NCBI GenBank assembly: GCA_040289515.1
Contig: PSLI01000004.1
Location: 11,111 to 75,110 of the forward strand
DNA length: 64,000 nucleotides
Reading direction: 5' to 3'
Source: Candidatus Sysuimicrobiota bacterium
Lineage (GTDB): Bacteria; Sysuimicrobiota; Sysuimicrobiia; Sysuimicrobiales; Sysuimicrobiaceae
Shown: positions 1,536 through 31,979 of the stretch, in pieces
Layout: every line of letters starts with the position of its first letter
Position numbering within the stretch: position 1 is the stretch's first letter
Program-made: the position numbers and the translations under genes
The notes under the pieces: generated by a model
Database searches by the model: none
The model's input: the letters and a program-made list of their open reading frames with translations, nothing else
What the model was told of the DNA's origin: nothing

Positions 1536-1557
1536 CCCATCTGGATCGGAGGCGCGT

Positions 1558-2292: not shown

Positions 2293-2371
2293 GCCTTCCG
2301 GCCCGGAGGTCGGCGGTTACGGCCTCAGGAGGGTATGAGGAGACCAGGACGCAACAGGCTTCGGAGATACG

Positions 2372-2447
<76 letters not shown>

Positions 2448-2458
2448 ACGCGCCCAGG

Positions 2459-2467
2459 ATTGTACCA
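2459..2467 (-). promoter_or_regulatory. Putative extended -10 (TGgTACAAT) for tRNA-Ala
   Basis: The reverse complement reads TGGTACAAT about 12 nt upstream of the tRNA 5' end. No clear -35. Confidence 0.3.
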
Positions 2468-2528
2468 CACCCAGGCCCCCGCGGGCGCCGGCGGCGTATC
2501 ATGGAAGCCGGAAGACCAGGAGGCGGCG

Positions 2529-3005
2529 ATGCTGGAACCGGGTGCGCCGGCACCGGAGTTTGAGCTGGTGGATCAAGCGGGCCAACGGGTGCGGCTCCGA
2601 GACTTCCGGGGCCGCCGCGTGGTCCTGTACTTCTATCCCAAGGACGGCACCCCCGGCTGCACCCGGGAGGCTTGCTCGTTTCGGGACGTACACGGCCAGC
2701 TGCAGCGGGCGGGGGTGGTGGTGCTGGGCGTGAGCCCCGACAGCCCGGAGTCCCACACCAGGTTCCGAGAACGTCACAACCTGCCCTTCCCCCTGCTATC
2801 GGACCCCCAGGGGCAGGCGGCGCGGGTGTATGGGGCGTGGGGCCAGAAGACCATGTACGGCCGGAAGCGCTGGGGGGTGGTGCGGACCACCTTCCTCATC
2901 GGCCCGGACGGGCGGATCGAACGCGTGTGGCGCCGGGTCAGGCCCGACGGCCACGGCGCGGAAGTCCTGGCCGCGCTCCAGGCCGAATCGCGGGAGGGGG
3001 CATGA
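2529..3005 (+). CDS. bcp: Thiol peroxidase Bcp (peroxiredoxin)
   Basis: APEFELVDQAG...YFYPKDGTPGCTREACSFRD. AGGAGG RBS ahead of ATG 2529. Confidence 0.85.
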   Translation: MLEPGAPAPEFELVDQAGQRVRLRDFRGRRVVLYFYPKDGTPGCTREACSFRDVHGQLQRAGVVVLGVSPDSPESHTRFRERHNLPFPLLSDPQGQAARVYGAWGQKTMYGRKRWGVVRTTFLIGPDGRIERVWRRVRPDGHGAEVLAALQAESREGA

Positions 3006-5317
3006 GGCACCAACCCGTGCGGCGGAGGTCGAGCGGCCGCCGGCGTTGGACCCGGTGGCTGGCCGCGGGGCTGGTAGCGCTGGCTGCAGCGGCCACCGTC
3101 GCAACCGTGAGCCTGGCCGTCCTGGTCAGCACGCTGCGAGCCAGCCTGCCGGACTTGGCTACCCTGTACCAGCCCCCGAACCAGGCCACGCGCATCTACG
3201 CGGCGGACGGGGAACTCATTGCCAGCCTGTACCGGGAGAACCGGGCGTCCGTGCGCCTGGAGGCCATCCCGGAGGTTCTGCAGCAGGCGGTGGTGGCCAT
3301 CGAGGACGAACGGTTCTACCAGCACCGGGGCGTGGATCCGCGGGGCATCCTACGGGCTACCTGGCGGAACCTGACCCGGCAAGCGGTGGTCGAGGGTGGC
3401 AGCACCATCACCCAGCAGCTGGCCCGCAACCTGTTCCTCAGCCCGCGGCGGAGCCTGGACCGCAAGCTGCAGGAGATGCTCCTGGCGGTGGAGATTGAGC
3501 GCCGGCTCACCAAGCAGGAGATCCTCGAGCGTTACCTCAACCAGGTGTACTTCGGCAACGGTGCGTACGGCGTGGAGATGGCCGCCCGCCTGTTCTTCGG
3601 CAAGAGCGTGCGCGCCCTGACTCTTCCGGAGGCAGCCCTGCTGGCGGGCGTCATCCAGGCCCCCTCACGGTATTCGCCCTTCGACCACTTCCCGCTGGCC
3701 AAGCGGCGGCAGGAGGTGGTGCTGGATCGCATGGTGGAGCTGGGCTTCCTAAGCCGGGAGGAGGCGGAGGAGGCCAAGAAGGCACCCCTGCGCCTGAACC
3801 CGGGCCCGCGAAATCTGGGCCTGGTGGGGGTTCGGGCCCCATACTTCGTCTCGTACATCCTTCCCTACCTGGTGGAGCGGCACGGGGAGGACGCCGTGTA
3901 CAACGGCGGCCTGCAGGTGTACACCACCCTGGATCCTCGTCTGCAGGCGCTCGCGCAGCAGGTGATCACCCAAGGCGTGGAGGAGGCGCGTCGTGCCGGA
4001 CTGCGGGTGACCCAGGGGGCTCTCGTGGCCCTGGAGCCCGGCTCGGGCAGGATCCTGGCGATGGTGGGCGGGGTGAACTTCCAGCGATCCCAGTTCAACC
4101 GGGCCTGGCAGTCTCGGCGTCAGCCCGGCTCCGCCTTCAAGCCCTTCGTGTACACCGCGGCCCTGGAAGCCGGCGTCTCACCCGACCGGGTTCTCCTGGA
4201 CGCCCCGGTGGGGTACCGGATCGCGGGGTGGGGTTACTGGTGGCCGAAGAATTACGATGGCACGTACTGGGGCCCTGTCTCCCTGCGGGTGGCGCTGGAG
4301 CAGTCCCGGAACATCCCCGCCGTGCGCATGCTGGCGGAGCTGGGGCCTCAGGCGGTGATCGATACCGCGCGGCGCATGGGGATCCGCAGCCCCCTGCAGC
4401 CCAACCTGTCCTTGGCGCTGGGAACCTCGGAGGTGACGCCTCTGGAGATGGCCGCGGCGTTTGCCACCCTGGCTGCGGGGGGCGTGTACGCGGAGCCCGT
4501 GGCCATTACCAAGGTGCTGGACGCCAAGGGGCGCGTGCTGGAGGAGGTCCGGCCCCAGCGGCGCCTGGCCCTGCGCCCGGAGGTGGCCTACCTGATGACG
4601 GACCTTCTGCGGGGCGTGATCCTGCGGGGCACTGGTCGGGCCGCGGATCCAGGTCGGCCCGCGGCGGGTAAGACGGGGACCACGGACGATTATCGGAATG
4701 CGTGGTTTGTGGGCTACACCCCGGAGCTGGCGGTGGCGGTGTGGGTGGGCAACGACGACAACAGCCCCACCAACCGCGTGGTCGGAGGGTCGGTACCCGC
4801 ACGGCTGTGGGCTCGGTTCGTCAGGCGAGCCCTGGCGGGCAGGCCCCCCGCGAACTTCCCGGTGCCCCCGGGAATCGTGCACGTACCGGTGTGCATGCAG
4901 GAACGTGCGGACGGCACGTGCGAGCGGCAGGCGTGGCGGGCGATCCTGCGGGAGCAGCAGGCTTCCCCACCTCCCAGTCCGGAAGCGGTCCAGGTCCCGC
5001 CCCCGGAGGATGCCTCCGTGCGGGCTCCGTCAGTAGTGCTGCTCCAACCGCAGCAGGGAGCTCCGGTAACATCCCCCTTTTTGGTGGAGGGCCGGGCCTG
5101 GCCCGGCGCCCGGGTGCGTTTGCGGGTCGTCATGGAGGGAGGCCCCGCACCGGTCACGGTGGTGGACACGCAGCTTTCCGCGGGGCCGGACGGCTTCTTC
5201 GCGTACACCGTGGAGTCAGCGCTGCGGTTTTCCGGGGCCCGGTACCGCATCGCGGCGGAGGCCACGGGACCCCAGGGTACCGTGGCAAGCGCCGCGGTGA
5301 CGGCGCAGGAACGCTAG
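3002..5317 (+). CDS. Penicillin-binding protein 1A (bifunctional transglycosylase/transpeptidase) with a ~130-aa C-terminal extension
   Basis: GT51 motifs (EDERFYQHRGVD, GGSTITQQLARN) and a transpeptidase domain (SAFKPF, KTGTT). ATG 3002 overlaps the bcp stop as ATGA. N-terminal TM anchor. Confidence 0.85.
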   Translation: MRHQPVRRRSSGRRRWTRWLAAGLVALAAAATVATVSLAVLVSTLRASLPDLATLYQPPNQATRIYAADGELIASLYRENRASVRLEAIPEVLQQAVVAIEDERFYQHRGVDPRGILRATWRNLTRQAVVEGGSTITQQLARNLFLSPRRSLDRKLQEMLLAVEIERRLTKQEILERYLNQVYFGNGAYGVEMAARLFFGKSVRALTLPEAALLAGVIQAPSRYSPFDHFPLAKRRQEVVLDRMVELGFLSREEAEEAKKAPLRLNPGPRNLGLVGVRAPYFVSYILPYLVERHGEDAVYNGGLQVYTTLDPRLQALAQQVITQGVEEARRAGLRVTQGALVALEPGSGRILAMVGGVNFQRSQFNRAWQSRRQPGSAFKPFVYTAALEAGVSPDRVLLDAPVGYRIAGWGYWWPKNYDGTYWGPVSLRVALEQSRNIPAVRMLAELGPQAVIDTARRMGIRSPLQPNLSLALGTSEVTPLEMAAAFATLAAGGVYAEPVAITKVLDAKGRVLEEVRPQRRLALRPEVAYLMTDLLRGVILRGTGRAADPGRPAAGKTGTTDDYRNAWFVGYTPELAVAVWVGNDDNSPTNRVVGGSVPARLWARFVRRALAGRPPANFPVPPGIVHVPVCMQERADGTCERQAWRAILREQQASPPPSPEAVQVPPPEDASVRAPSVVLLQPQQGAPVTSPFLVEGRAWPGARVRLRVVMEGGPAPVTVVDTQLSAGPDGFFAYTVESALRFSGARYRIAAEATGPQGTVASAAVTAQER

Positions 5318-23540: not shown

Positions 23541-23566
23541 CGGGGGCCACCGAGCCCCCGTTTGCG
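23541..23566 (+). terminator. Terminator-like hairpin after ccmE
   Basis: A perfect 7-bp G/C stem CGGGGGC-cgagc-GCCCCCG followed by TTTGCGTT. Confidence 0.3.
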
Positions 23567-23693
23567 TTCTGGGCCGAGACGAAGAGGAATCCGGGCACCG
23601 GAAGTCAAAGACACACGCCAGCTCCTCGGTCAGGGAGGCAGGTTGCTGCGACGCGAAGCCAGCTGTTCGTGCAACTGCAGGGTCCCAGGGAGC

Positions 23694-24545
23694 TTGCGAC
23701 TCTCTCTGTCGGTGGCGATGGCGGCGTGGGTGCTGGCGGGCTGCCAGCCGTACGTCCGGGTGAGCAGCCCCGTCCGGGAGGTCTACGAGCCCCTGGAGGG
23801 GTTCGCGGTGCGCATGAACTTCATGCCCCGCAAACCCGACGCGGACGGGGGCCGGAAGATCTACGAGGCGCGGTGCGCGGTCTGCCACGGACCGCAGGGG
23901 CGCGGGGACGGGCCCATGGCCCAGCAGCTCACGGCCCCGGAGAAGAACCCGTACACCGACTTTTTGAGCCTGTTCCGCATCCATCGCAAGGCGGAACCGT
24001 TGCCGAGCCGGCCCGCCCGGTTTGACAACCTGGATCAGATGCGGCTAAACGCCCCCTTCGCTATGTTCGAGACCATCGCCCGCGGGCGTCCCCACACCGC
24101 CATGCCCGGGTTCCAGCACCCCGCCTACGGTGCCACGGACGGCGGCGAGCCGCGCCTACGGGATCAGGAGATCTGGGACGTGCTGTTCTGGGAGTGGAGC
24201 CGCACCACCAGCCGGGAGCGCCTGGTGCAGGGCCGGCGGATCTACAACCAGCTGTGCGCCCGCTGCCACGGCGTAGGAGGGGACGGGAATGGGCCGGAGG
24301 CGGGCCGCATCCGGCAGCAAGTGTGGACGTGGGCGCGGGGCGTGGGGCCGGGTGTTTTCACGGACCGGGACTGGATGGCGTACCGCAAGCCCACGGAGCT
24401 GTACCAGCGGATTTCAGAAGGGGTGCGGCGGCGAGGGCTGGAGCTGATGCCGGCCTACGCCGACAAGCTGTCGGCGGACCAGATCTGGACCGTGGTAGAG
24501 TACCTGTGGACGTTCGTGTACACACCCCCGAAGGACCTGCGGTAG
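23694..24545 (+). CDS. Diheme c-type cytochrome, probable lipoprotein
   Basis: Two CxxCH motifs (CAVCHG, CARCHG). A TTG start at 23694 gives a lipobox LAGC. The alternative ATG at 23718 is in the same frame. Confidence 0.75.
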   Translation: MRLSLSVAMAAWVLAGCQPYVRVSSPVREVYEPLEGFAVRMNFMPRKPDADGGRKIYEARCAVCHGPQGRGDGPMAQQLTAPEKNPYTDFLSLFRIHRKAEPLPSRPARFDNLDQMRLNAPFAMFETIARGRPHTAMPGFQHPAYGATDGGEPRLRDQEIWDVLFWEWSRTTSRERLVQGRRIYNQLCARCHGVGGDGNGPEAGRIRQQVWTWARGVGPGVFTDRDWMAYRKPTELYQRISEGVRRRGLELMPAYADKLSADQIWTVVEYLWTFVYTPPKDLR

Positions 24546-24556
24546 GAGGTGGCCGG

Positions 24557-25201
24557 GTGGATCGTCGCACGTTCTTAAAGGCCCTGAGCGCGCTGCCCGT
24601 GGTGGGGGCTGTGGGAGCCTTCCTGGCGCCCTTGCTGCGCTACCTGAAGCCGAACCTGGAACGGGGACTGGGCCTGCCGCAGGGGAAGCTACCGCCCGAC
24701 CTGGCGGAGGGGGACCTCCCCACGGGCGAGCCGCTGCCCATCGCTACCTTGGAGGAGCTGCGGGAACCGTGGTCCAGCAAGTTCTTCGTGTTCACGCAGA
24801 AGTACCCACAGTACACCCCGGAGCTGGCCAAGGCGGCCACGGTGCCGGGGGTGGCCATCAAGCTGCCGTGGAAGCTGCCCTTTCCGGGCTACAAGGGAGG
24901 GAAGGAGCCCACGGACATCGTGATCTTCTCCCGCATCTGTCCGCACCTGGGCTGCATCTTCAACTACGTGCCCAACTGGCGGGAGGTGACGGCGGGCTAC
25001 GGGGGCTACGTACCGCCGGAGGACCGGCGGCACGGGCTGCTCGCGTGCCCGTGCCACCTGTCCATCTACGATCCCGCGGACCGGGAACTTCCTGGCCGGG
25101 TGCTGTCGGGCCCCGCGCCCCGGCCGCCCCGCTACTTCACCTACGAGATCCGGGGCGGGGTGATCGTGGTCACCGGGGCGGAACCCGGCGGGATCGCCTG
25201 A
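24557..25201 (+). CDS. Rieske [2Fe-2S] protein with Tat signal
   Basis: RRTFLKAL twin-arginine motif. CPHLGC and CPCHLS cluster-binding boxes. RBS AGGAGG. Confidence 0.85.
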   Translation: MDRRTFLKALSALPVVGAVGAFLAPLLRYLKPNLERGLGLPQGKLPPDLAEGDLPTGEPLPIATLEELREPWSSKFFVFTQKYPQYTPELAKAATVPGVAIKLPWKLPFPGYKGGKEPTDIVIFSRICPHLGCIFNYVPNWREVTAGYGGYVPPEDRRHGLLACPCHLSIYDPADRELPGRVLSGPAPRPPRYFTYEIRGGVIVVTGAEPGGIA

Positions 25202-25214
25202 GGGAGCCGGAGCC

Positions 25215-26363
25215 GTGTGGGACCGGTTGCGAGAGTGGTTCCGGGAGCGCAAGGAAAAGCTGGACCTGTTCGACGAGACCCACGTCGACCGCCAGGACAA
25301 CCCCCTGTACATCCTCGGCCAGATCGTCTACTTCGCGTGGATCGCCGTGGTGGTAAGCGGCATCCTCCTCATGATCTGGTACGAGCCTACCACCCACGGC
25401 GCGTACAACTCCATTCTGCGCATCCAGCGGGAGGTGCCCCTGGGTTGGCTGACCCGCGGCGTGCACAAGTACGGCGCGGACATGCTGATCCTGGCCATCA
25501 CCCTGCGCATCTACCGGATGTATTTCCTGGGAGAGTACAAACGGCCCAACGAACTGTCGTGGATGATCCTGTTCGGCTCCCTGGTGCTGGCCATGATCTC
25601 CGGGCTCACGGGCTACCTGCTCATCTGGAACCAGCGGGCCTTCTGGGCGGCCAAGGTGGTGCTCACGGTGGCCGTGTACCTGGACCAGCTCCCCCTGATC
25701 GGCCAAACGCGGTTCGGCAGCGCCATCGCCTTCGCCTTCCTGGGCGGGCCGGCGGAGGGGCAGGGAACCCTCACCCGGTTCTACGCCATCCACTTCGGGA
25801 TCTCCGCGCTGCTGCTGGTGGCCTCGGAGGTGTACTTCTACTTCACCCGCCGGCGCCGGTTCGTCCTGTCCCCCACGGCCCTGGTGATCCTGCTGGCTAT
25901 GCTGGTGGTAACGAGCTACGTGTTCCCCGCAGAGATGGGCCGCCGGGCCGACCCCAACCGCACGCCCCTGCCCATCCTGTCCGACTGGTACTTCCTGGCC
26001 CTGTACCAGTACGTGAAGTATACCCCGCCCCTGTGGGCGGGCCTGGGCCCCGGGCTTTTGATCGCTTACGGCATGCTGGTCCCCTTTTTGGACCGCAGCA
26101 AGGGCCGCAGGCCCTCCGAGCGCCCCTTCTTCACGGTGGTGGGGGTCATGGCCCTGACGTACTTCCTCGTGTTCACGGCCCTCATCCTGTTCAACATCGC
26201 GGTGATCGGCCGGGATCCCCACGTGGTCCTACTGGTGACCGCGGCGACTTTGACCCTGGGCCTGGTGCTGGAGTTCCGCTACCGGCGACGGAAGAAGCTG
26301 GCGGAGCTCGCCGCACCGACTCCCGCGCCGCGCGCGGCGCCAGCTCGGGCCGCGGCGGGGTGA
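25215..26363 (+). CDS. Cytochrome b (full-length b6 plus subunit-IV-like) lacking both heme bH histidine ligands
   Basis: Collinear with cytochrome b6 (GWLTRGVHKYGADM..., TRFYAIHFG...). Helix B has H84 but R98 at the second His position. Helix D has H193 but Y207/F208 where the second His is expected. SDWY sits in place of PEWY. Confidence 0.85.
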   Translation: MWDRLREWFRERKEKLDLFDETHVDRQDNPLYILGQIVYFAWIAVVVSGILLMIWYEPTTHGAYNSILRIQREVPLGWLTRGVHKYGADMLILAITLRIYRMYFLGEYKRPNELSWMILFGSLVLAMISGLTGYLLIWNQRAFWAAKVVLTVAVYLDQLPLIGQTRFGSAIAFAFLGGPAEGQGTLTRFYAIHFGISALLLVASEVYFYFTRRRRFVLSPTALVILLAMLVVTSYVFPAEMGRRADPNRTPLPILSDWYFLALYQYVKYTPPLWAGLGPGLLIAYGMLVPFLDRSKGRRPSERPFFTVVGVMALTYFLVFTALILFNIAVIGRDPHVVLLVTAATLTLGLVLEFRYRRRKKLAELAAPTPAPRAAPARAAAG

Positions 26364-26370
26364 GGGGGCG

Positions 26371-26634
26371 TTGGAAGTCGTGCGGTTCGCGGCAAGCTTC
26401 GGTGTGGCCGTGTTGAGCCTGCACGGAGCCTGGCAGGCATTCGGGCTGGCTTGGGCGGACCCACGGGCGGAGCGCTGGCTCGTCCTGGGCGTGTACCTGG
26501 CCGCCCTGCTGGCCTCAGGAGCATGGGCGGGCTACCTCGTCTACGCCGCGGACCGCAGGGCGGGACGGGTGCGGCGACGGGTGGGGCTGTACGAGCGGTG
26601 GCTGGCAACGCCTCGGGGAGGGAGGGGGCCGTGA
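26371..26634 (+). CDS. Small two-TM membrane protein
   Basis: 87-aa hydrophobic ORF immediately after cytochrome b. Confidence 0.4.
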   Translation: MEVVRFAASFGVAVLSLHGAWQAFGLAWADPRAERWLVLGVYLAALLASGAWAGYLVYAADRRAGRVRRRVGLYERWLATPRGGRGP

Positions 26635-26831
26635 GGAAGGACCGCAGCACATGGCACTTCGCCCTGGCCGGTTTCCTGGCGGTGCTGGCCCTAGCCGGAG
26701 TGGCCCTTATGGTGTACGGGGAGTGGTTTGACCAGCGGCTGGTGGCCTCCGGGGCCCTGGGCGTGATCCTGGTTTTGTACGCGGCCATCGTAGTGCTGTT
26801 CCGGAAGGCGGGTCTCACCGCGGAGGAGTAG
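26631..26831 (+). CDS. Small two-TM membrane protein
   Basis: 66 aa, VRKDRSTWHFALAGFLAVLALAGVALMVYGEW... GTG overlaps the preceding stop as GTGA. Confidence 0.4.
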   Translation: MRKDRSTWHFALAGFLAVLALAGVALMVYGEWFDQRLVASGALGVILVLYAAIVVLFRKAGLTAEE

Positions 26832-26832
26832 G

Positions 26833-28008
26833 GTGTACCGACGGCTGCTTTTGAGCCTGCAGAGCGCCACCCTGAGGCTGGACACCGTCCTAAACCGCGT
26901 CCTGCCCCAGGACTTCAACCCCCTGTACTACACGGGCGGGCTTGCGAACCTGTTCCTCACCATCCTGGTGGTGTCGGGGATCCTCATTTTCCTGTACTAC
27001 GAGCCCAGCCTGGAGGGCGCGTACGCCTCCGTGGAGTTCCTGACCCGGGACGTGCCCTACGGGGTGGTGTTCCGGGGGATCCACCGGTACGCCGCGGACG
27101 CCTACATGGTGGCGATCCTGCTGCACCTGTTCCGCAACTGGTTCACGGACCGCTACCGGGAGGCGCGGGACAGCCAGTGGCTGTCGGGCATGTTCCTGCT
27201 GGTGGTCTCGGGCTTTGCGGGCTTCACGGGCTACCTGCTGGTGTGGGACGAGCGAGCCCAGCTGCTTACAAGCCTCACGGCGCAGGCCCTACGGTCGGTG
27301 CCCCTGGTGGGAGGCTGGCTGGCCCGGGTGTTCCTGGGCGGGCCGGGTGTGAGCGACACGACCCTGTCCCGGTTCCTGTACCTGCATGTGGGGCCCGCCA
27401 TGACCGTGTACGTGCTCCTGTGGTGGCACTACGTACGCCTGCGCCACCCCAAGATCTGGCCTCCCGCGGTGTGGGTGCTGTTCAGCCTGGGCCTGCTGTT
27501 CATCCTCGCCTCCGCGCTGCCCGCGGCCAGCGGCCGTCCCGCGCAGCCGGGCGCGACCCCGGGGGGGTTCGCGGTGGATTGGTTCTTCCTCTGGCCGTAC
27601 GTGCTCGCCCGGTGGCTGGCGCCAGCCTGGGCCATGGTCCTGGTGGGAGCCCTTGTGGCGTACGGCATGGTCATCCCCTACACCCTACGGGAGACGCCCG
27701 AGCAGCGCGGCCTGCGGGCCCTGGGCCAGGCGGTGGTGGTGGAGGAGAACTGCACCGGCTGCGAGCTGTGCTACTACGACTGCCCGTACAACGCCATCTA
27801 CATGGTACCCAGTCCCTACCCCGGCAAGAGCCGGGCCGCGGCCAACCGCAAGCTGCTGGCGGTGGTGGTGGACTCCCGGTGTGTGGAGTGCGGGATCTGC
27901 ATCGGCGCCTGCCCGTTCGAGGCGCTGGAGCTGCCCAGGATGCTGGAAAAGGACGTGCAGCAGAGAATCCGGCGGGGCGCCCAGGTGGAGGCGCCCGTCC
28001 CTTCGTGA
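26833..28008 (+). CDS. Cytochrome b N-terminal domain (four His ligands intact) fused to a C-terminal 2x[4Fe-4S] ferredoxin domain
   Basis: H84/H98 and H185/H199 are at canonical spacing in helices B and D. The C-terminus carries CTGCELCYYDCP and CVECGICIGACP. Confidence 0.8.
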   Translation: MYRRLLLSLQSATLRLDTVLNRVLPQDFNPLYYTGGLANLFLTILVVSGILIFLYYEPSLEGAYASVEFLTRDVPYGVVFRGIHRYAADAYMVAILLHLFRNWFTDRYREARDSQWLSGMFLLVVSGFAGFTGYLLVWDERAQLLTSLTAQALRSVPLVGGWLARVFLGGPGVSDTTLSRFLYLHVGPAMTVYVLLWWHYVRLRHPKIWPPAVWVLFSLGLLFILASALPAASGRPAQPGATPGGFAVDWFFLWPYVLARWLAPAWAMVLVGALVAYGMVIPYTLRETPEQRGLRALGQAVVVEENCTGCELCYYDCPYNAIYMVPSPYPGKSRAAANRKLLAVVVDSRCVECGICIGACPFEALELPRMLEKDVQQRIRRGAQVEAPVPS

Positions 28009-28017
28009 GGCGCAGCC

Positions 28018-28452
28018 ATGGGGACAGCACCGGAGCGCACCCCGCAAGCCAATCCCCAAGGACCGGCGCGGGTGGTGGGGTTTTTGTGTGACTGGGCGGT
28101 GCGCAGCGAGGGACTGCTGAACGCGGACGACACCCTGGTGGGCATGCCCCACGTGACCGTGATCCGGGTGCCCTGTTCCGGTTTCGTAAAGCCCGCGTGG
28201 CTGGAGCTGGCCCTGCGCAGTGGTGCTGCGGGCACCTTCGTGTGCGGGTGCCCCATGGGCGACTGCCTGAACCGGGAGGGTAACTGGATCATGGAGGGCC
28301 GCATCGACCAGCTGCGCAAGCGGCTGAGCCGCCAGAAGGTGGATCCCGACCGGGTGGCCTTTTTCGCCTTCGGGCTGCACGAGCGGGAGGCCTTCCTTCA
28401 AGCCGTGGCGGAGTTCGTGAACAGGCTCGCCGGATCCGGAGGGAACCGGTGA
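28018..28452 (+). CDS. MvhD/FlpD-like iron-sulfur protein (methyl-viologen-reducing hydrogenase delta-subunit family)
   Basis: FLCDWA, VIRVPCSGFV and FVCGCPMGDC cysteine pattern typical of PF02662-type proteins. Confidence 0.65.
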   Translation: MGTAPERTPQANPQGPARVVGFLCDWAVRSEGLLNADDTLVGMPHVTVIRVPCSGFVKPAWLELALRSGAAGTFVCGCPMGDCLNREGNWIMEGRIDQLRKRLSRQKVDPDRVAFFAFGLHEREAFLQAVAEFVNRLAGSGGNR

Positions 28453-28565
28453 TGCGGTTCGGCCCGAAGCGGTGGAAGACGTACCTGTGGTACGTTGTCT
28501 TCTACCTCCTGTTCTTCGCCCTGCTCCTGTTCGTAGCCGCCTTCGGGTTGGTGGCGGAGGCGTAG
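28452..28565 (+). CDS. Unannotated 37-aa single-TM peptide
   Basis: MRFGPKRWKTYLWYVVFYLLFFALLLFVAAFGLVAEA. ATG overlaps the MvhD-like stop as TGATG. It is absent from the ORF track because it is under 60 aa. A CcoQ-like position. Confidence 0.4.
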   Translation: MRFGPKRWKTYLWYVVFYLLFFALLLFVAAFGLVAEA

Positions 28566-28579
28566 GGCGGGAGGGTCGC

Positions 28580-29974
28580 ATGCTGGTGTGGATGTTCACG
28601 GACGAGCGGTGGAGTTCTGCCCGCAGGTTCCTGTACGCGGGCACCCTGTGGGCGCTGGTGGCCCTGGCGTACGAGGCCCTGGCGGCCGCCCAGCGGGCGT
28701 GGCCGGCCCTGCTGTCGGAGTTTCCATGGGCTTCCCACGGGCGGGTGGTGGCCTTAAGCCACGACCTGTGGGTTTTCGGCTTTTTGTCCCAGCTGCTGGT
28801 GGCCTCGGCCCTGCGGGTGATGGGGCAGACGGACCGGGAGGGGATCTGGAGCGAGCCCGTAGCGCACCTGGCTGTTTGGCTGTGGAACCTAGCCCAGGCC
28901 CTGAGCTGGTGGTGGCTGTCGGTGGGCTGGACCCGGGGAAGGCCGCTGGCGGAGGCCCCGTGGCCGGTGGACGGGCTGCGTGTGCTGGCCGCTTTGGCGC
29001 TGTGGTGGGTGGTGCGCAACAGCCTGGTTCGGTCGTCCCGGCGGGAAGCTGGCTTGGCCCTGGTGGCGGTGGCCTTCGCGGGTCTGCCGCTGGTGCTGGT
29101 GCTGGGCAAGGGGCTGTTCTCGCCCTTCGACAACCCTTACCACGGCCTCCTGGACGCCCTGAGCCAGGCCTTCCTGCGGGCGGGCTTGGTGTGGCTGTGG
29201 CTAGTACCTCTGGCGGGCGGTGTGTCTTTGTACGTGCTGTCCGCCCTTACGGGCCGGCCGGGTCTGTCGGAGGGCATGGGCCTTTCGGCGGTGGTGGGGC
29301 TGGTGAGCTTTGGCGCCCTGGCGGGGCCTGCGGAGTTTGTATGGGGCCCGGTCCCCTTCTGGGTGCAGACCGTGGGCACCGTGGCGCGGGGCCTGCTGCT
29401 GCTGCCCGCGGCGACCCTCCTGGCCGGCGTGGTTCGGTCCCTGGACGGCCATTGGCGCAGCCTGGGGAACCACCCGGGCGTGGTGCTCACCCTGGCGGGA
29501 TGGCTCGCGGTGTTCTGCGGGGCGGCGGCGGACGCCCTCGCCTCCCTGGTGGGGCCCAGCCGGCTGGTGCACCTGTCCCTGTGGGGTGAGGGTGTTCGGG
29601 TGCTCCTGCTGACCGGCGCGGGTGCGGTGGCCGCCGGATGCGTGTACCTGTTGACCCCTCATGTGCTGGGCCGATCCCTGGTCAGCAGGGCTGCCGCGTG
29701 GCGCCACCTCTGGCTGGTGGTGGTGGGATGGTCGCTTTCCGCCCCCTTCCTTCTGCTGGGCGGGTTGGTGCAGGGTGCGGTGTGGGTCACGGGCACAGTC
29801 CCCTTCGCGCACGCGGTGCAGGCCGTGCGGCCCTTGCTGGGGGGGGGCTTTGTGGGCCTGCTGGTGGCGTGGGCCGCGCAGGGAGTGTTCGCGTGGAATG
29901 TGTTCCTGACCGCGGACTCCGGGGAGCCCGTGCCCGCCGCAGAGCAGGAGCTGGCCGCGGTGGCGGGGTCCTGA
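28580..29974 (+). CDS. Polytopic (about 12 TM) membrane protein in the CcoN/NorB position, with no canonical heme-copper-oxidase metal ligands
   Basis: ATG 28580 is preceded by GGGAGGG. 464 aa, Trp-rich. The single His residues do not form the HH and HxH ligand pattern of HCO subunit I. Confidence 0.55.
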   Translation: MLVWMFTDERWSSARRFLYAGTLWALVALAYEALAAAQRAWPALLSEFPWASHGRVVALSHDLWVFGFLSQLLVASALRVMGQTDREGIWSEPVAHLAVWLWNLAQALSWWWLSVGWTRGRPLAEAPWPVDGLRVLAALALWWVVRNSLVRSSRREAGLALVAVAFAGLPLVLVLGKGLFSPFDNPYHGLLDALSQAFLRAGLVWLWLVPLAGGVSLYVLSALTGRPGLSEGMGLSAVVGLVSFGALAGPAEFVWGPVPFWVQTVGTVARGLLLLPAATLLAGVVRSLDGHWRSLGNHPGVVLTLAGWLAVFCGAAADALASLVGPSRLVHLSLWGEGVRVLLLTGAGAVAAGCVYLLTPHVLGRSLVSRAAAWRHLWLVVVGWSLSAPFLLLGGLVQGAVWVTGTVPFAHAVQAVRPLLGGGFVGLLVAWAAQGVFAWNVFLTADSGEPVPAAEQELAAVAGS

Positions 29975-29989: not shown

Positions 29990-30451
29990 GTGGTGAGGGA
30001 TCCCGTAGCGCACCTGGTGCGACTGGCGGTGGCGGCCGTGCTGTGCGGGTTCGTGGCCACCGTGCTCCTGCCAGCGTTGGACCCCGCGGTGCGCACGGCG
30101 CGGGCAGCGCCCCTGTCGGCGCAGGCGGCGCGGGGACGGTGGGTGTACGCCCGGGAGGGGTGTGCGGCCTGTCACACCCAGCAGGTGCGTACGGTGGAGG
30201 CGGGGTTCGGCATGGTGCGCCGGAGGGGCGACGTGGGAGAGGCTTCCTCGCCAAGCCAGTACGCGGGGCAGGACCCGGCCCTGTTGGGGCGGCTGCGGAT
30301 GGGGCCGGACCTGACGCACGTGGCCTCCCGTGCCTCCGCGGAAGAGCTGCGTTCGCTAGTTCGGTCCGGCACGGGAGGGATGCCCGCGTACCGGCACCTG
30401 CCCGATCCGGAACTGGCGGACCTCGTGGCGTACCTGCTGACCCTGCGATAG
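29990..30451 (+). CDS. CcoO/NorC-like membrane-anchored monoheme cytochrome c
   Basis: GRWVYAREGCAACHTQQVR matches the CcoO GxxVYxxEGCxxCHSQ signature. A downstream ...GPDLTHV...GMPAY box and an N-terminal TM anchor are present. Confidence 0.6.
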   Translation: MVRDPVAHLVRLAVAAVLCGFVATVLLPALDPAVRTARAAPLSAQAARGRWVYAREGCAACHTQQVRTVEAGFGMVRRRGDVGEASSPSQYAGQDPALLGRLRMGPDLTHVASRASAEELRSLVRSGTGGMPAYRHLPDPELADLVAYLLTLR

Positions 30452-30459
30452 GAGGAAGG

Positions 30460-30999
30460 ATGGAGGCCCAAACGCCGCGACCGTCCCGCTGGCTGGCGCT
30501 GCTGTACGTGCTGCTGCCTCTGTGGGCAGTGACGTACCTGTTCGTGGCGGGAGGACTGGTGGCTCCGGAGGTCCGGCCGGTGGCCCGGAACGTGGAGGGC
30601 GTCTCGGCGGGTGTCGGCGCGGCACCGGACGGGTCCGAGCAGGTGCTGGGGATCCTCGAGGTGGTGCCTGAGGACGCGCGGGACGACCAGCCGCCCCGTC
30701 CGGTTACCGCGGCCATGCTGGCGCAGGCGAAGGCACGGTACGACACCCTGTGCGCCGTCTGCCACGGCCCGGAAGGCCGGGGCGACGGCCCCGCGGGCGC
30801 GGCTCTTAACCCCAAGCCGGTCAACTTCCATTTCCGCGCTTTCCAGGAGCGCATGCCCGTGGGTGCCACGCACTGGGTGATCAAGAACGGCCTGGGTAAC
30901 ACCGCCCGCCGCAGCGGGATGCCCGCCTTTGGCCAGCTGCCTGACGACCAGATCTGGGCCCTGGTGGAGTACATACGGCGGCTGGGCCGCCGGCCATGA
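30460..30999 (+). CDS. Membrane-anchored monoheme class-I cytochrome c
   Basis: CAVCHG heme site, GMPAF Met-ligand region, N-terminal TM helix. RBS GGAGGAAGG. Confidence 0.75.
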   Translation: MEAQTPRPSRWLALLYVLLPLWAVTYLFVAGGLVAPEVRPVARNVEGVSAGVGAAPDGSEQVLGILEVVPEDARDDQPPRPVTAAMLAQAKARYDTLCAVCHGPEGRGDGPAGAALNPKPVNFHFRAFQERMPVGATHWVIKNGLGNTARRSGMPAFGQLPDDQIWALVEYIRRLGRRP

Positions 31000-31979
31000 G
31001 CGCTCCCGCCAACCCCGACGTGGCCCTGGCGTCCGCGTATGCACCGGTTCGGGAGGACTTGGAGCGCCTGCAGGCCCTCCTGCAGGAGGAGCTCGCGTCC
31101 CACGACCCCTTCCTGCGCGAGCTGGTGTCCCACGTGCTGCAGACGAGGGGCAAGATGGTGCGGCCGGCTCTGGCGTTCCTCTGCGCGCGGCTCGCGGGCG
31201 GAGGAGGCGCCCACCGGGACCTGGTGGCCGCGGCGGTGGAGCTCATCCACGTGGCCAGCCTGATCCACGACGACGTCATCGACGAGGCGGACCGGCGCCG
31301 GGGCCAGGCCACCCCCAACGCCCGCTGGGGCAACCACGTGGCGGTGCTTCTGGGCGACTACCTGTTCAGCAAGGCTTTCCACCTCCTCAGCCGGGTGGGC
31401 CGGGACGACGTGGCCAGCCGGGTGGCGTTCGCCACCGTGCGCATGAGTCAGGCGGAGCTGCTGCAGGTGAAGTATGGCAGTACCCCCCACACGGACGAGT
31501 CGGTGTACTTCGCCATCGTGGAGGGGAAGACCGCCCAGCTGGTCTCCTCCGCGTGTGCGGGAGGGGTCCTGGTGGGCGGGGGTGACGGCGGCCTGGCGGA
31601 TCGGCTTGGCACCTTTGGGCTGCACTGGGGAGTAGCCTTCCAGATCACCGACGACACCCTGGACCTCACCAGCGACCCGGAGGTCCTGGGCAAGCCCATC
31701 GGTAGCGACGTGCGGGGGGGCAAGGTCACCCTACCCCTCATCCACGCCCTGCGCCACGCGGACTCCCAAGACCGCCAGCGGCTGGAGGCTTGGATCCGCT
31801 TGGGGGAGCTGGAACCCTTGCGGCAGGCCCTGGAGCGGTCCGGATCCCTCGCCTACGCCCTGGAGGTGGCCCGGCAGCATGCCCGCAGGGCCCTGCGGAT
31901 CCTGGACACCCTGCCCAGCAGCCCCGAACGCGACAGCCTCGCAGCCCTTACGGAGTTCGTGGTCTCCCGCCACCATTAG
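30996..31979 (+). CDS. Polyprenyl diphosphate synthase (hepta/octaprenyl type)
   Basis: LIHDDVIDEADRRRG and FQITDDTLD DDxxD boxes. ATG overlaps the previous stop. Confidence 0.85.
   Translation: MSAPANPDVALASAYAPVREDLERLQALLQEELASHDPFLRELVSHVLQTRGKMVRPALAFLCARLAGGGGAHRDLVAAAVELIHVASLIHDDVIDEADRRRGQATPNARWGNHVAVLLGDYLFSKAFHLLSRVGRDDVASRVAFATVRMSQAELLQVKYGSTPHTDESVYFAIVEGKTAQLVSSACAGGVLVGGGDGGLADRLGTFGLHWGVAFQITDDTLDLTSDPEVLGKPIGSDVRGGKVTLPLIHALRHADSQDRQRLEAWIRLGELEPLRQALERSGSLAYALEVARQHARRALRILDTLPSSPERDSLAALTEFVVSRHH

What the first reader, a model, noticed from the sequence alone, without database searches (positions are those of the whole stretch)
26833..28452. Second cytochrome-b domain with all four His ligands fused to a 2x[4Fe-4S] ferredoxin, followed by an MvhD/FlpD-like protein
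The 26833-28008 protein has the H84/H98 and H185/H199 ligand pairs at canonical 14-residue spacing. This is the opposite state to the upstream cytochrome b. After two further TM helices it ends in two CxxCxxCxxxCP clusters. The next gene, translated from 28018, has the FLCDWA/PCSGF/CGCPMGDC cysteine pattern of MvhD/FlpD electron-transfer subunits. Together these suggest a di-heme b to 2x[4Fe-4S] to [2Fe-2S] wire linking the quinol/Rieske side of the membrane to a cytoplasmic Fe-S acceptor or donor. I am not aware of a described bc-type complex with this architecture.
Basis: partly seen in the sequence, partly recalled or inferred. Interest (0 to 1): 0.8.

Follow-up and report, generated by a model that had tools for sequence, protein, structure and literature searches.

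The report
Two-cytochrome-b complex III with cytoplasmic Fe-S wire
The window encodes an uncharacterised respiratory complex III variant, conserved in two bacterial phyla, in which a one-haem cytochrome b is paired with a two-haem cytochrome b whose tail carries iron-sulfur clusters that could link membrane quinol oxidation to cytoplasmic redox chemistry.

Summary
Window 26833-28008 encodes a 391-aa cytochrome b with His84/98/185/199. It has helices A-F only and is fused to a 2x[4Fe-4S] ferredoxin domain. Window 28018-28452 encodes an MvhD/FlpD protein.

All four His, all eight Cys and four MvhD Cys are conserved in 80 independent loci, so this is not an assembly artefact. The window matches Candidatus Sysuimicrobiota (CSP1-3) best.

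The gene order cyt c, Rieske, cytochrome b1, cytochrome b2-Fd, MvhD holds in 33/33 Sysuimicrobiota and 18/18 Melainabacteria-type loci that have enough flank. In Aquificota, Nitrospirota, Nitrospinota and Deltaproteobacteria, cyt b, Fd and MvhD form one polypeptide. This supports a physical haem bH to [4Fe-4S]x2 to [2Fe-2S] wire on the cytoplasmic side.

The upstream cytochrome b keeps only the haem bL ligands and an invariant SDWY Qo motif. My best reading is an asymmetric b1/b2 heterodimer. It would have one Qo site, obligatory bL-to-bL transfer, and an Fe-S branch at bH. The direction of electron flow and the cytoplasmic partner are unresolved.

The fusion clade was noted at sequence level in 2014 as "PDWF-FeS", there without a Rieske protein. 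I found no description of the Rieske-linked two-cytochrome-b form. I class it as a new variant of a known kind.

The parts
23562..24545 (+). Di-haem cytochrome c (two CxxCH motifs); the start codon is uncertain. Probable high-potential acceptor of the Rieske protein.
   Evidence: Pfam Cytochrom_C 5e-20 and Cytochrome_CBB3 3e-19, two stretches each. Present upstream in 33/33 Sysuimicrobiota and 18/18 Melainabacteria-type loci with enough flank.
24557..25201 (+). Rieske [2Fe-2S] protein with a twin-arginine N-terminus (VDRRTFLK).
   Evidence: GTG start with GGAGGTGG upstream. The CPHLGC and CPCH boxes are invariant in 56 loci, and Ser and Tyr of CPCH(L/F)S(I/V)Y are invariant. Weak TAT_signal hit.
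25215..26363 (+). Cytochrome b1: 382 aa, about eight TM segments by hydropathy (a fused b6 plus subunit IV type). It has the haem bL ligands only (His84, His193). The bH positions are Arg98 and Tyr207. The Qo motif LSDWYFL is invariant.
   Evidence: Pfam Cytochrome_B 4.5e-29 plus Cytochrom_B_C. The alignment to cytochrome b6 shows Arg and Tyr at the bH ligand positions. These features are conserved in 60 loci of two phyla. It is 33% identical to cytochrome b2 over 305 aa.
26371..26634 (+). Small membrane ORF s1 (87 aa, about 2 TM); no known family.
   Evidence: ORF and translation. tblastn matches at the same position in most Sysuimicrobiota loci. No Pfam or NCBIfam hit.
26631..26831 (+). Small membrane ORF s2 (66 aa, 2 TM). 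It overlaps the s1 stop by 4 nt and ends 1 nt before cytochrome b2-Fd.
   Evidence: GTG start with GGGAGGGAGGGGG upstream. A 77-aa gene is called at this place in a 92%-related contig. Conserved by tblastn.
26833..27687 (+). Cytochrome b2, membrane part of the fusion (residues 1-285). It has helices A-F, four haem ligands (His84/98/185/199) and a relaxed Qo-like motif VDWF.
   Evidence: AlphaFold2 mean pLDDT 81.6 and pTM 0.80, with helices at 30-55, 77-105, 112-137, 175-202, 212-228 and 264-284. Foldseek aligns about 300 columns to bc1 cytochrome b chains, E about 1e-10.
27742..28008 (+). C-terminal 2x[4Fe-4S] ferredoxin domain of the fusion (residues 304-391), predicted to be cytoplasmic.
   Evidence: Two CxxCxxCxxxCP motifs and Pfam Fer4 families. 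All 8 Cys are kept in 79 of 80 loci; the exception is a contig end. An even number of TM helices and the positive-inside bias (11 K+R in 63 n-side residues against 6 in 93 p-side residues) place it on the N-terminal, cytoplasmic side.
28018..28452 (+). MvhD/FlpD-type protein, predicted to bind a [2Fe-2S] cluster through Cys24, 53, 78 and 83. No signal peptide.
   Evidence: Pfam FlpD 8e-25. 5ODC_D at 1.2e-15 with aligned Cys. Four Cys invariant in 66 loci. Downstream of cytochrome b2-Fd in 38/40 and 22/23 loci. Fused to cyt b-Fd in other phyla.
28452..28565 (+). 37-aa single-TM ORF between MvhD and the CcoN-like gene.
   Evidence: Translation. A 38-aa gene is called at the same place in a related contig.
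28580..29974 (+). CcoN-like (C-family haem-copper oxidase subunit I) homologue that has lost the haem and CuB histidine ligands. Lineage-specific neighbour, not part of the conserved core.
   Evidence: Pfam COX1 4e-19; NCBIfam ccoN 79 bits against a cut-off of 583. The alignment to 9G6B/3MK7 CcoN shows non-His residues at the positions of the conserved CcoN histidines. Eleven Sysuimicrobiota sequences (the window plus 10 loci) lack them and 17 Melainabacteria CcoN keep them.
29990..30451 (+). FixO/CcoO-like mono-haem cytochrome c (CAACH).
   Evidence: Pfam FixO 7e-13.
30460..30999 (+). Membrane-anchored mono-haem cytochrome c (CAVCH). Its end overlaps the start of the polyprenyl synthase gene at 30996.
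   Evidence: Pfam Cytochrome_CBB3 1e-11 on the longer ORF. Gene model.

Best explanation
Cytochrome b2-Fd and MvhD are subunits of an asymmetric Rieske/cytochrome b complex, a complex III variant.

Cytochrome b1 carries the single working Qo site, with the invariant SDWY motif and a b6-like cd1 helix. It binds only haem bL. Cytochrome b2 is its paralogue. It binds bL and bH and has a relaxed Qo-like pocket. After helix F it continues into a cytoplasmic 2x[4Fe-4S] domain, onto which the [2Fe-2S] protein MvhD docks.

I propose that b1 and b2 form a heterodimer in place of the usual cytochrome b homodimer. Quinol oxidised at Qo(b1) sends one electron to Rieske, then the di-haem cytochrome c, then an oxidase. 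The other electron goes to bL(b1), must cross to bL(b2), and then goes to bH(b2). At bH the chain is wired to the cytoplasm through [4Fe-4S], [4Fe-4S] and [2Fe-2S].

My committed reading, held modestly, is that the b1/b2 specialisation funnels the low-potential electron of each quinol oxidation into this Fe-S branch and on to a cytoplasmic acceptor encoded elsewhere. This would be quinone-based bifurcation with an external low-potential exit. The same wire could also run inwards.

Shown here: cofactor ligands, domain order, topology, conservation, synteny, and fusion in other phyla. Inferred: the heterodimer, cluster-to-haem distances, direction of flow, and the identity of the partner.
For: - Ligands and domains are present and conserved in 80 loci.
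- cyt c, Rieske and b1 lie upstream in 51/51 loci with enough flank, and MvhD lies downstream in 60/63. Stop and start codons abut or overlap (26363/26371, 26634/26631, 26831/26833, 28008/18), which indicates one operon.
- Rosetta-stone evidence: cyt b-Fd-MvhD is a single 630-720 aa polypeptide in Aquificota, Nitrospirota, Nitrospinota and Deltaproteobacteria, including the cultured Hydrogenivirga caldilitoris and Hydrogenobacter hydrogenophilus.
- b1 has lost both bH ligands (Arg/Lys98, Tyr/Phe207) in 60/60 loci of two phyla. It keeps the bL ligands and an invariant Qo motif. A Qo site with bL but no bH needs an exit for the low-potential electron. The only co-conserved candidate is the di-haem paralogue, which is 33% identical.
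- The cd1 helix of b2 (ERAQLLTSL) lacks the b6-like xWAxKxV kept by b1. Its Qo-motif Trp is Val in 24/45 Sysuimicrobiota.
- Six TM helices plus the positive-inside rule put Fd on the bH (n) side.
- In the solved Mvh-Hdr complex, MvhD is an electron connector. The Fd domain and MvhD here match consecutive segments (571-645 and 648-769) of the HdrA2 model.
- Engineered bc1 dimers show that bL-to-bL transfer between monomers can sustain the enzyme (PMC4330944 and PMC4152375, listed).
Against: - No structure or coordinates were available, so the bL-bL, bH-[4Fe-4S] and [4Fe-4S]-[2Fe-2S] distances are untested.
- In many lineages the cyt b-Fd-MvhD protein works without any Rieske or b1 nearby (Kao & Hunte). 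b2-Fd/MvhD could therefore be a self-sufficient module that is merely co-transcribed here.
- No cytoplasmic acceptor or donor (HdrA, NuoF, hydrogenase) lies within 10 kb of the gene in a 92%-related contig.
- Thermodynamics, from my own reasoning: an electron that has crossed to the n side against the membrane potential is unlikely to reach ferredoxin potential. Related loci that pair the fusion with a NuoF-like NADH module argue for inward flow, from cytoplasm to haems, in those lineages.
- Whether b2 keeps a Qi quinone site could not be decided from sequence.
Confidence: 0.5

Rival explanations
1. Independent module. Cytochrome b2-Fd plus MvhD forms its own, probably homodimeric, membrane oxidoreductase, as it must in the Rieske-less lineages. 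It would be a di-haem transmembrane wire between a p-side quinone pocket (the xDWF site) and cytoplasmic Fe-S clusters. This is functionally like QmoC/QmoB, NarI-NarH or di-haem succinate:menaquinone reductase. It is only co-transcribed with a separate Rieske/b1/cyt c quinol:cytochrome c reductase, in which both quinol electrons go to the Rieske protein and bL is vestigial.
For: The triple fusion occurs as an orphan gene or without a Rieske or second cytochrome b in Aquificota, Nitrospirota, Deltaproteobacteria and Nitrospinota. Kao & Hunte report no Rieske in the clusters of the PDWF-FeS clade. All four haem ligands, and the Asp and aromatic residues of the Qo-like motif, are kept throughout the family. 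Pyrobaculum cytochrome b also lacks a bH ligand, so bH-less cytochromes b exist elsewhere.
Against: Adjacency of b1 and b2-Fd is 51/51 across two phyla that are only about 40% identical in these proteins. The loss of bH in b1 is strictly conserved together with an intact Qo motif, which would leave bL a dead end. The Qo-motif Trp of b2 is replaced by Val in half of the Sysuimicrobiota.
Confidence: 0.25
2. Electron input rather than output. A cytoplasmic reductant (NAD(P)H through a flavoprotein, ferredoxin, or a hydrogenase/Hdr-type partner docking on MvhD) feeds electrons through [2Fe-2S] and 2x[4Fe-4S] into haem bH. From there they either reduce quinone at a Qi site of b2, as proposed for ferredoxin-driven cyclic flow at haem cn of b6f, or cross to the p side towards cytochrome c and a haem-copper O2/NO reductase.
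For: Two loci of one assembly place a NuoF-like gene (Complex1_51K, SLBB, NADH_4Fe-4S) between two cyt b-Fd-MvhD paralogues inside a COX2-COX1-CtaB-SCO1 cluster. One member of the clade is fused to a ferredoxin plus a flavin oxidoreductase domain (Kao & Hunte). The family sits next to haem-copper-oxidase genes in Sysuimicrobiaceae, Melainabacteria, Aquificota and four further loci. NirS, hemerythrin and Rrf2 are neighbours in some loci. Both cytochromes b are most similar to cytochrome b6 but have no Cys for haem ci. Flow from the n side to the p side is favoured by the membrane potential (my own reasoning).
Against: If the target were simply Qi, nothing explains why b1 has lost its own bH. 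No NAD(P)H- or flavin-binding gene is in the operon of the window or its relatives. The CcoN-like neighbour in the window has no metal ligands, so it cannot be the acceptor there.
Confidence: 0.2
3. The fusion is an artefact, a decaying gene, or a non-catalytic protein, for example a redox sensor or assembly factor.
For: A neighbouring gene, the CcoN-like one, has clearly lost its catalytic ligands, so degenerate respiratory genes do exist in this operon.
Against: The ORF is intact with a Shine-Dalgarno sequence. All haem and cluster ligands are kept in 80 independent assemblies, apart from one gene cut short by a contig end. Hundreds of database proteins match, and 173 clusters at the 50% identity level match the helix E/F plus Fd segment at E<=1e-10. 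The AlphaFold model is confident.
Confidence: 0.03

Closest known systems
'PDWF-FeS' clade of cytochrome b (Kao & Hunte 2014, Genome Biol Evol, PMC4122944)
   Same: A bc-type cytochrome b (PF00033) with an xDWF Qo motif, followed by a 4Fe-4S domain and an MvhD domain. It is known from sequence only and its function is unknown. The window protein has VDWF and the same domain order.
   Different: The described members are single polypeptides, and the paper says no Rieske protein is in their clusters. Here MvhD is a separate gene, and the pair is embedded in a Rieske, cytochrome b, cytochrome c operon with a bH-less paralogue. That paper discarded any cytochrome b lacking one of the four His, so b1-type proteins were invisible to it.
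Cytochrome b6f / bc1 (Rieske/cytochrome b) complexes
   Same: [quoted passage not shown]
   Different: There are two non-identical cytochromes b. One lacks haem bH and so has no Qi site of its own. The other lacks helices G-H and carries Fe-S clusters on the n side. There is no Cys for haem ci. Known complexes are homodimers.
QmoABC of sulfate reducers (from my own knowledge: QmoC is a di-haem cytochrome b fused to a 2x[4Fe-4S] HdrC-like domain, and QmoB is HdrA-like with an MvhD-like domain)
   Same: The same cofactor logic: a membrane di-haem b, two [4Fe-4S] clusters and an MvhD-type module linking the quinone pool to a cytoplasmic redox enzyme.
   Different: The QmoC haem domain belongs to the NarI/HdrE family, not the bc-type family. 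Qmo has FAD-containing HdrA-like subunits, and none is encoded here. No Rieske protein or bifurcating Qo site is involved. Not tested here with tools.
MvhADG-HdrABC complex (PDB 5ODC)
   Same: MvhD homology (1.2e-15) with aligned cysteines. MvhD acts there as a [2Fe-2S] connector next to a ferredoxin-type domain. The Fd plus MvhD segments here are collinear with the C-terminus of HdrA2.
   Different: There is no hydrogenase and no HdrA, HdrB or HdrC in the operon. The partner on the other side is a membrane cytochrome b.
Anammox Rieske/cytochrome b complexes with an extra NAD(P)-oxidoreductase-like Fe-S flavoprotein subunit (from my own knowledge; the operon type is mentioned in PMC3578206)
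   Same: The idea that a Rieske/cytochrome b complex has a third, cytoplasm-facing redox exit, so that Qo bifurcation can reduce a low-potential acceptor.
   Different: The extra subunits differ (flavoprotein and multihaem c, against fused ferredoxin plus MvhD). The cytochrome b there is split into b6 and subunit IV and is, as far as I know, a normal di-haem protein. Not tested here.
Engineered cross-inactivated B-B fusion bc1 complexes (PMC4330944, PMC4152375)
   Same: They show that a dimer in which the electron must pass from bL of one monomer to bL of the other is catalytically competent. This is the step the natural b1/b2 pair would depend on.
   Different: Those are laboratory constructs of two full di-haem cytochromes b. 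Here the asymmetry would be natural and ancient.

Membership tests
bc-type cytochrome b (Pfam PF00033; Rieske/cytochrome b complexes) | Four-helix bundle A-D with two His pairs ligating haems bL and bH | tested here: met
   Pfam 7e-31. His84/98/185/199 align to the four haem-ligand His of cytochrome b6. They are invariant in 80 loci. The fold matches bc1 cytochrome b.
bc-type cytochrome b (Pfam PF00033; Rieske/cytochrome b complexes) | Qo motif (PEWY or a variant) in the ef loop, plus a cd1 helix that forms the Rieske docking site | tested here: inconclusive
   The motif is VDWF. Asp is near-invariant, but Trp is Val in 24/45 Sysuimicrobiota. The cd1 helix lacks the b6-like WAxK pattern that b1 keeps.
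bc-type cytochrome b (Pfam PF00033; Rieske/cytochrome b complexes) | Encoded with a Rieske iron-sulfur protein | tested here: met
   The Rieske gene at 24557-25201 has invariant CPHLGC and CPCH boxes. It lies upstream in 51/51 loci with enough flank.
bc-type cytochrome b (Pfam PF00033; Rieske/cytochrome b complexes) | Qi quinone-reduction site next to haem bH | not testable with these tools
   The Qi residues of bc1 and b6f are not conserved enough to be recognised by alignment, and no ligand-containing model was available.
bc-type cytochrome b (Pfam PF00033; Rieske/cytochrome b complexes) | Complete C-terminal part (helices E-H, or subunit IV) | tested here: not met
   Only helices E and F are present (212-228 and 264-284), followed by the ferredoxin domain. 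There is no Cytochrom_B_C hit, unlike b1.
'PDWF-FeS' cytochrome b clade (Kao & Hunte 2014) | Cytochrome b with an xDWF motif fused to a non-Rieske 4Fe-4S domain | tested here: met
   VDWF at 248-251 and two CxxCxxCxxxCP motifs. The window protein is 27-34% identical to triple-fusion proteins in alignment A1 and aligns with them through the Fd domain.
'PDWF-FeS' cytochrome b clade (Kao & Hunte 2014) | MvhD domain in the same polypeptide | tested here: not met
   MvhD is a separate gene 9 nt downstream in the window, in Sysuimicrobiota and in Melainabacteria.
'PDWF-FeS' cytochrome b clade (Kao & Hunte 2014) | No Rieske protein in the gene cluster | tested here: not met
   Rieske and a second cytochrome b are always present upstream in the two phyla.
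2x[4Fe-4S] bacterial-type ferredoxin domain | Two CxxCxxCxxxCP motifs in a ferredoxin-type fold | tested here: met
   Cys307/310/313/317 and Cys350/353/356/360, each followed by Pro. Fer4, Fer4_7, Fer4_21 and Fer4_9 score above their cut-offs. The AlphaFold model shows short strands and helices, with lower pLDDT of 52-77.
MvhD/FlpD (Pfam PF02662) | Family HMM above the gathering score, and four cysteines able to bind [2Fe-2S] | tested here: met
   87.6 bits against 22.3. Cys24/53/78/83 align with Cys of 5ODC_D and are invariant in 66 loci. Their role as ligands is inferred.
MvhD/FlpD (Pfam PF02662) | Association with a group 3c [NiFe] hydrogenase or an HdrA-type flavoprotein | tested here: not met
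   No such gene is in the operon or within 10 kb downstream in a 92%-related contig. The rest of the genome could not be searched.
QmoC / HdrE / NarI-type cytochrome b-FeS proteins | Haem domain of the NarI/HdrE family | tested here: not met
   The haem domain hits only bc-type families (PF00033, PF13631). This is a functional analogy, not membership.
cbb3-type oxidase subunit CcoN (for the neighbour at 28580-29974) | The conserved CcoN histidines that ligate haem b, haem b3 and CuB | tested here: not met
   In the alignment to 9G6B/3MK7 CcoN the HH pair is Ala-Glu, the helix-VI His is Ala/Gly, and the helix-X HxH is Val/Arg. Eleven Sysuimicrobiota sequences lack them and 17 Melainabacteria sequences keep them. 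The ccoN model scores 79 bits against a cut-off of 583.

The most novel reading that the evidence does not exclude
This is a natural, obligately heterodimeric Rieske/cytochrome b complex. It would be the standard complex III of Sysuimicrobiota and of aerobic Melainabacteria. Every low-potential electron from the single Qo site must hop from bL to bL and then leaves through haem bH, two [4Fe-4S] clusters and MvhD to reduce a cytoplasmic acceptor. That would be quinone-based electron bifurcation with an external low-potential output. It would let quinol-level donors such as sulfide or H2 supply reducing power to the cytoplasm without reversed complex I.
Probability: 0.2. Interest if true: 0.9.

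Novelty: new variant of a known kind. Interest (0 to 1): 0.7.

Why it matters
Two points of bc-complex mechanism have only been approachable with engineered enzymes or by hypothesis. One is whether electron transfer between the two bL haems of a dimer is physiologically used. The other is whether Qo-site bifurcation can deliver its low-potential electron to something other than the Qi quinone.

A naturally asymmetric complex with one Qo-bearing, bH-less cytochrome b and one di-haem cytochrome b wired to cytoplasmic Fe-S clusters would make both directly testable.

The operon is conserved in the sister lineage of Cyanobacteria (Melainabacteria), where the genes were annotated simply as petB and petC. 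The arrangement therefore also bears on how b6f-type complexes and their n-side electron input evolved. The related single-polypeptide form occurs in cultured Aquificota, which gives experimental access.

Tried and rejected
- **Assembly artefact or fused gene call:** rejected. The fusion is intact in 80 independent loci and more than 480 proteins.
- **Cytoplasmic partner nearby (HdrA, hydrogenase, NuoF, flavoprotein):** none is in the operon. Downstream of the operon the related contig shows polyprenyl synthase, a two-component system, TatA, RadC and MreBC. Cytochrome c maturation genes lie upstream in the window.
- **NCBIfam:** no curated family reaches its cut-off for any protein of the operon. 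The best partial hits are ExtP-type cytochrome b and HdrA2.
- **Third homologue search, with b1:** returned only close Sysuimicrobiota relatives and added nothing on distribution.
- **AlphaFold2 of b2-Fd:** gave a confident fold, but the tool returns no coordinates. Haem-to-cluster distances could not be measured and no multimer could be modelled.
- **CcoN-like neighbour as the terminal oxidase of the complex:** rejected. It lacks the conserved metal-ligand histidines.
- **Whether the short COX1 paralogues beside triple fusions elsewhere are orthologues of the window's CcoN-like gene:** they are not. There is no significant BLASTP hit.
- **Literature:** searches for Rieske plus MvhD, for Melainabacteria complex III, for Sysuimicrobiota respiration, for bH-less cytochrome b, and for anammox or bifurcating bc complexes found no description of the two-cytochrome-b, Rieske-linked form. 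Soo et al. 2017 (Science) is not held and could not be read.
- **Deciding from sequence whether b2 has a Qi site:** inconclusive.


Full report
**Observation**

The ORF at 26833-28008 on the + strand starts with GTG, preceded by GGAGGAG, and encodes 391 aa. Pfam finds Cytochrome_B (7e-31, residues 23-204) and a series of 4Fe-4S dicluster families over residues 300-373. His residues lie at 84, 98, 185 and 199. Two CxxCxxCxxxCP runs lie at 307-318 and 350-361. phmmer against solved structures puts the four His on the haem ligands of cytochrome b6.

The next ORF, 28018-28452, is a 144-aa MvhD/FlpD protein. Pfam gives 8e-25, and 5ODC chain D matches at 1.2e-15. Cys24, 53, 78 and 83 fall on MvhD cysteines.

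**Not chance, not an artefact**

A scan of one genome per species returned 154 related places, of which 80 were kept. In those 80 loci the four His are invariant. The eight Cys are present in every locus except one where the contig ends inside the gene. Four MvhD Cys are invariant in 66 loci, and Cys76 is variable. More than 480 database proteins share the two-domain architecture. A search of 1.8 billion cluster representatives with only helices E-F plus the ferredoxin domain found 173 clusters at E<=1e-10. Most are 360-770 aa with the match at about residues 200-390, so cytochrome b-ferredoxin fusions form a large family.

**Source organism and operon**

The window is about 93% identical at protein level to Candidatus Tepidifontimicrobium thermophilum, of the phylum Sysuimicrobiota (CSP1-3). 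NCBI often labels these MAGs Armatimonadota. G+C is about 70% and nearly all genes are on the + strand.

The operon reads as follows:

| Coordinates | Gene |
|---|---|
| about 20.9-23.5 kb | cytochrome c maturation genes |
| 23562-24545 | di-haem cytochrome c |
| 24557-25201 | Rieske protein |
| 25215-26363 | cytochrome b1 |
| 26371-26634 and 26631-26831 | two small membrane ORFs |
| 26833-28008 | cytochrome b2-Fd |
| 28018-28452 | MvhD |
| 28452-28565 | 37-aa membrane ORF |
| 28580-29974 | CcoN-like protein |
| 29990-30451 | FixO-like cytochrome c |
| 30460-30999 | a further cytochrome c |
| 30996-31979 | polyprenyl synthase |

Stops and starts abut or overlap throughout.

**Synteny**

tblastn of the window proteins against the 80 loci shows the order cyt c, Rieske, b1, b2-Fd, MvhD in all 33 Sysuimicrobiota loci and all 18 Melainabacteria-type loci (Obscuribacterales) that have enough upstream sequence. 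MvhD follows in 38/40 and 22/23. The proteins of the two phyla are only about 40% identical, so the arrangement is old or has been transferred as a unit.

The CcoN-like and FixO-like pair is found only in the window's close relatives. Melainabacteria instead have an intact CcoN and CcoO upstream.

**The upstream cytochrome b**

b1 is a full-length cytochrome b with Cytochrom_B_C and about eight TM segments. Against cytochrome b6 it keeps the two bL (bp) ligands, His84 and His193. It has Arg98 and Tyr207 where the bH (bn) ligands should be. In 60 loci, position 98 is Arg (Lys once) and position 207 is mostly Tyr or Phe and almost never His (one His in 60). The bL ligands and the motif LSDWYFL, the PEWY equivalent, are invariant. 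b1 also keeps a b6-like cd1 helix (FWAAKVV).

b2 has ERAQLLTSL at the cd1 position and a relaxed motif, VDWF, in which Trp is Val in 24 of 45 Sysuimicrobiota. b1 and b2 are 33% identical over 305 residues, through helices E and F. So b1 looks like the Qo subunit without a bH or Qi end. b2 looks like a di-haem wire with a degraded Qo pocket.

**Topology**

The AlphaFold2 model was built from an alignment of 34 sequences and has mean pLDDT 81.6 and pTM 0.80. It shows helices A-F and the surface helices of the cd and ef loops, followed by a small domain of short strands and helices. Foldseek aligns about 300 columns to bc1 cytochrome b chains.

By established knowledge, the N-terminus of cytochrome b and b6 lies on the n side. 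Six helices therefore put the C-terminal ferredoxin domain on the same cytoplasmic side, where haem bH lies. Loop charges agree: 11 K+R in 63 n-side residues against 6 in 93 p-side residues. MvhD has no signal peptide.

**Fusion evidence from other phyla**

In Aquificota the homologue is one 647-aa protein containing cytochrome b, 2x[4Fe-4S] and FlpD/MvhD. It continues with a further TM helix and a domain of about 120 aa. The same triple fusion occurs in Hydrogenivirga caldilitoris, Hydrogenobacter hydrogenophilus, Candidatus Magnetobacterium, Nitrospira, Nitrospinae and Deltaproteobacteria, with all ligands conserved. This is strong evidence that the ferredoxin domain and MvhD act together with the haem domain.

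NCBIfam adds that the ferredoxin domain and MvhD match consecutive parts (571-645 and 648-769) of the HdrA2 model. The module is thus collinear with the HdrA2 C-terminus.

**Contexts of the wider family**

Some triple fusions are orphans. Many lie beside haem-copper-oxidase genes:
- Hydrogenivirga and another Aquificota locus: COX2-like, COX1 and SCO1, with a hemerythrin and a 413-aa membrane protein (NnrS-like in L077) downstream. The Hydrogenivirga locus also has a nirS cluster and an Rrf2 regulator.
- Three further loci: COX2-like, COX1, CtaB and SCO1, plus a second short COX1 that lacks the CuB His-His pair. A fourth locus has COX2-like, COX1, SCO1 and the same kind of short COX1, but no CtaB, and lies beside a nirS cluster.
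- Two loci of one assembly: a NuoF-like NADH-binding gene sits between two triple-fusion paralogues.

These contexts show that the family can work without a Rieske protein. In some lineages its cytoplasmic partner is probably an NAD(H) module.

**Mechanism**

The shown parts are the cofactor ligands, domain order, sidedness, conservation, synteny and fusion. From these I infer a chain bL, bH, [4Fe-4S], [4Fe-4S], [2Fe-2S] that spans the membrane and ends in the cytoplasm.

b1 has an intact Qo motif, a dedicated Rieske protein and haem bL, but no bH. Its low-potential electron needs an exit, and the only co-conserved candidate is the di-haem paralogue. I therefore propose a b1/b2 heterodimer with obligatory bL-to-bL transfer. 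Engineered cross-inactivated bc1 dimers show that this step is competent (PMC4330944 and PMC4152375).

The specialisation gives one Qo site on b1 and one n-side exit on b2. This is easier to explain if Qo-derived electrons are funnelled into the Fe-S branch than if the branch merely feeds a Qi site, so I lean towards output to a cytoplasmic acceptor.

Against this, an electron carried to the n side against the membrane potential is unlikely to be reducing enough for ferredoxin (my own reasoning). The NuoF-linked relatives also suggest inward flow. Direction, partner, and the presence of a Qi site in b2 remain open.

**Comparison with what is known**

Kao & Hunte 2014 (PMC4122944) named a 'PDWF-FeS' clade. 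It comprises cytochromes b of Magnetospirillum magneticum and Turneriella parva carrying a 4Fe-4S domain and MvhD, and one from Alicycliphilus fused to ferredoxin and a flavin oxidoreductase. They found no Rieske protein in those clusters. They also removed every cytochrome b lacking one of the four His, and they noted that Pyrobaculum cytochrome b lacks a bH ligand.

The Melainabacteria operon was described as a complex III/IV combination with petB and petC, without mention of the ferredoxin domain, MvhD or a second cytochrome b (PMC6349859). Two papers on Sysuimicrobiota/CSP1-3 do not discuss complex III.

Functionally the nearest analogue is QmoABC (from my own knowledge). The nearest concept is the proposed third redox exit of anammox Rieske/cytochrome b complexes (from my own knowledge).

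The window proteins are members of the bc-type cytochrome b, ferredoxin and MvhD families. They fit the PDWF-FeS clade in domain order. They differ from it in having MvhD as a separate gene and in being linked to a Rieske protein and a bH-less paralogue.

**Verdict**

The novelty is narrower than claimed, but the Rieske-linked pair of a one-haem and a two-haem cytochrome b with a cytoplasmic Fe-S branch appears undescribed. It is conserved in two phyla, where it may be the principal complex III. I rate it a new variant of a known kind, with interest 0.7.

Noticed in passing
window 28580-29974 (+): A CcoN-like protein (C-family haem-copper oxidase subunit I) in which the conserved haem and CuB histidines are replaced: the HH pair by Ala-Glu, the helix-X HxH by Val/Arg, and the helix-VI His by Ala/Gly. 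The same loss is seen in 10 related Sysuimicrobiota loci, while the 17 Melainabacteria CcoN beside the homologous operon keep all the His. It is still followed by a FixO-like haem c subunit.
   Followed up: partly
window 25215-26363 (+): The upstream cytochrome b has a strictly conserved Arg (Lys once in 60 loci) at the first bH ligand position and mostly Tyr or Phe at the second. It contains no cysteine at all, so haem ci is excluded.
   Followed up: yes
window 24557-25201 (+): Rieske box II reads CPCH(L/F)S(I/V)Y, with Ser and Tyr invariant in 56 loci. From memory, these are the hydrogen-bond donors that raise the potential of bc1 and b6f Rieske clusters. This is odd next to an Asp-type (SDWY) Qo motif, which Kao & Hunte associate with low-potential systems.
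   Followed up: partly
window 26371-26634, 26631-26831 and 28452-28565 (+): Three small hydrophobic ORFs (87, 66 and 37 aa) with no family match are wedged between the cytochrome b genes and after MvhD. The first two are conserved by tblastn in Sysuimicrobiota. Melainabacteria have two unrelated ORFs of 134 and 157 aa in the same gap.
   Followed up: partly
L082 6583-12049 and L088 3559-9085 (assembly GCA_040960175.1): Two paralogous cyt b-Fd-MvhD genes flank a NuoF-like gene (Complex1_51K, SLBB, NADH_4Fe-4S) inside a COX2-COX1-CtaB-SCO1 cluster. Both paralogues in L082 keep all four haem ligands; those in L088 were not checked.
   Followed up: partly
L082 12674-14068, L087 9992-11365 (-), L088 9645-11045, L089 8900-10306 (-): A short COX1 paralogue (457-468 aa) lies beside the triple-fusion gene. 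It lacks the CuB His-His pair but keeps an HxH at about residue 335-357. It is about 29% identical to the long COX1 of L082 and L087 and is unrelated to the window's CcoN-like protein.
   Followed up: partly
L077 7959-9902; P0121, P0195, P0223: Triple-fusion proteins have an additional TM helix after the MvhD domain, followed by a C-terminal domain of about 120 aa with no Pfam match. By topology this domain should be periplasmic.
   Followed up: no
L051 5309-7210 (Candidatus Obscuribacter phosphatis): The b1 orthologue is 633 aa, about 250 aa longer than in the window. The extra C-terminal region has no Pfam hit.
   Followed up: no
L081 1-9800 and 12345-14411 (Hydrogenivirga caldilitoris); L089 10366-15893: cd1 nitrite reductase and haem d1 biosynthesis genes adjoin the cyt b-Fd-MvhD / COX1 cluster in both loci. 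In L081 a hemerythrin, a 413-aa membrane protein and an Rrf2 regulator also adjoin it. This hints at a link with O2 or NO metabolism.
   Followed up: no
window 1-64000: G+C is 68-74% throughout, with positive GC skew in every 2-kb bin and real genes almost all on the + strand. The many long opposite-strand ORFs are by-products of the high G+C.
   Followed up: no
L010, L013, L014, L020 and others, about 1300-4700: In most other Sysuimicrobiota loci about 3.3 kb separates CcmE from the di-haem cytochrome c gene. In the window and its close relatives they are adjacent. The inserted genes were not inspected.
   Followed up: no
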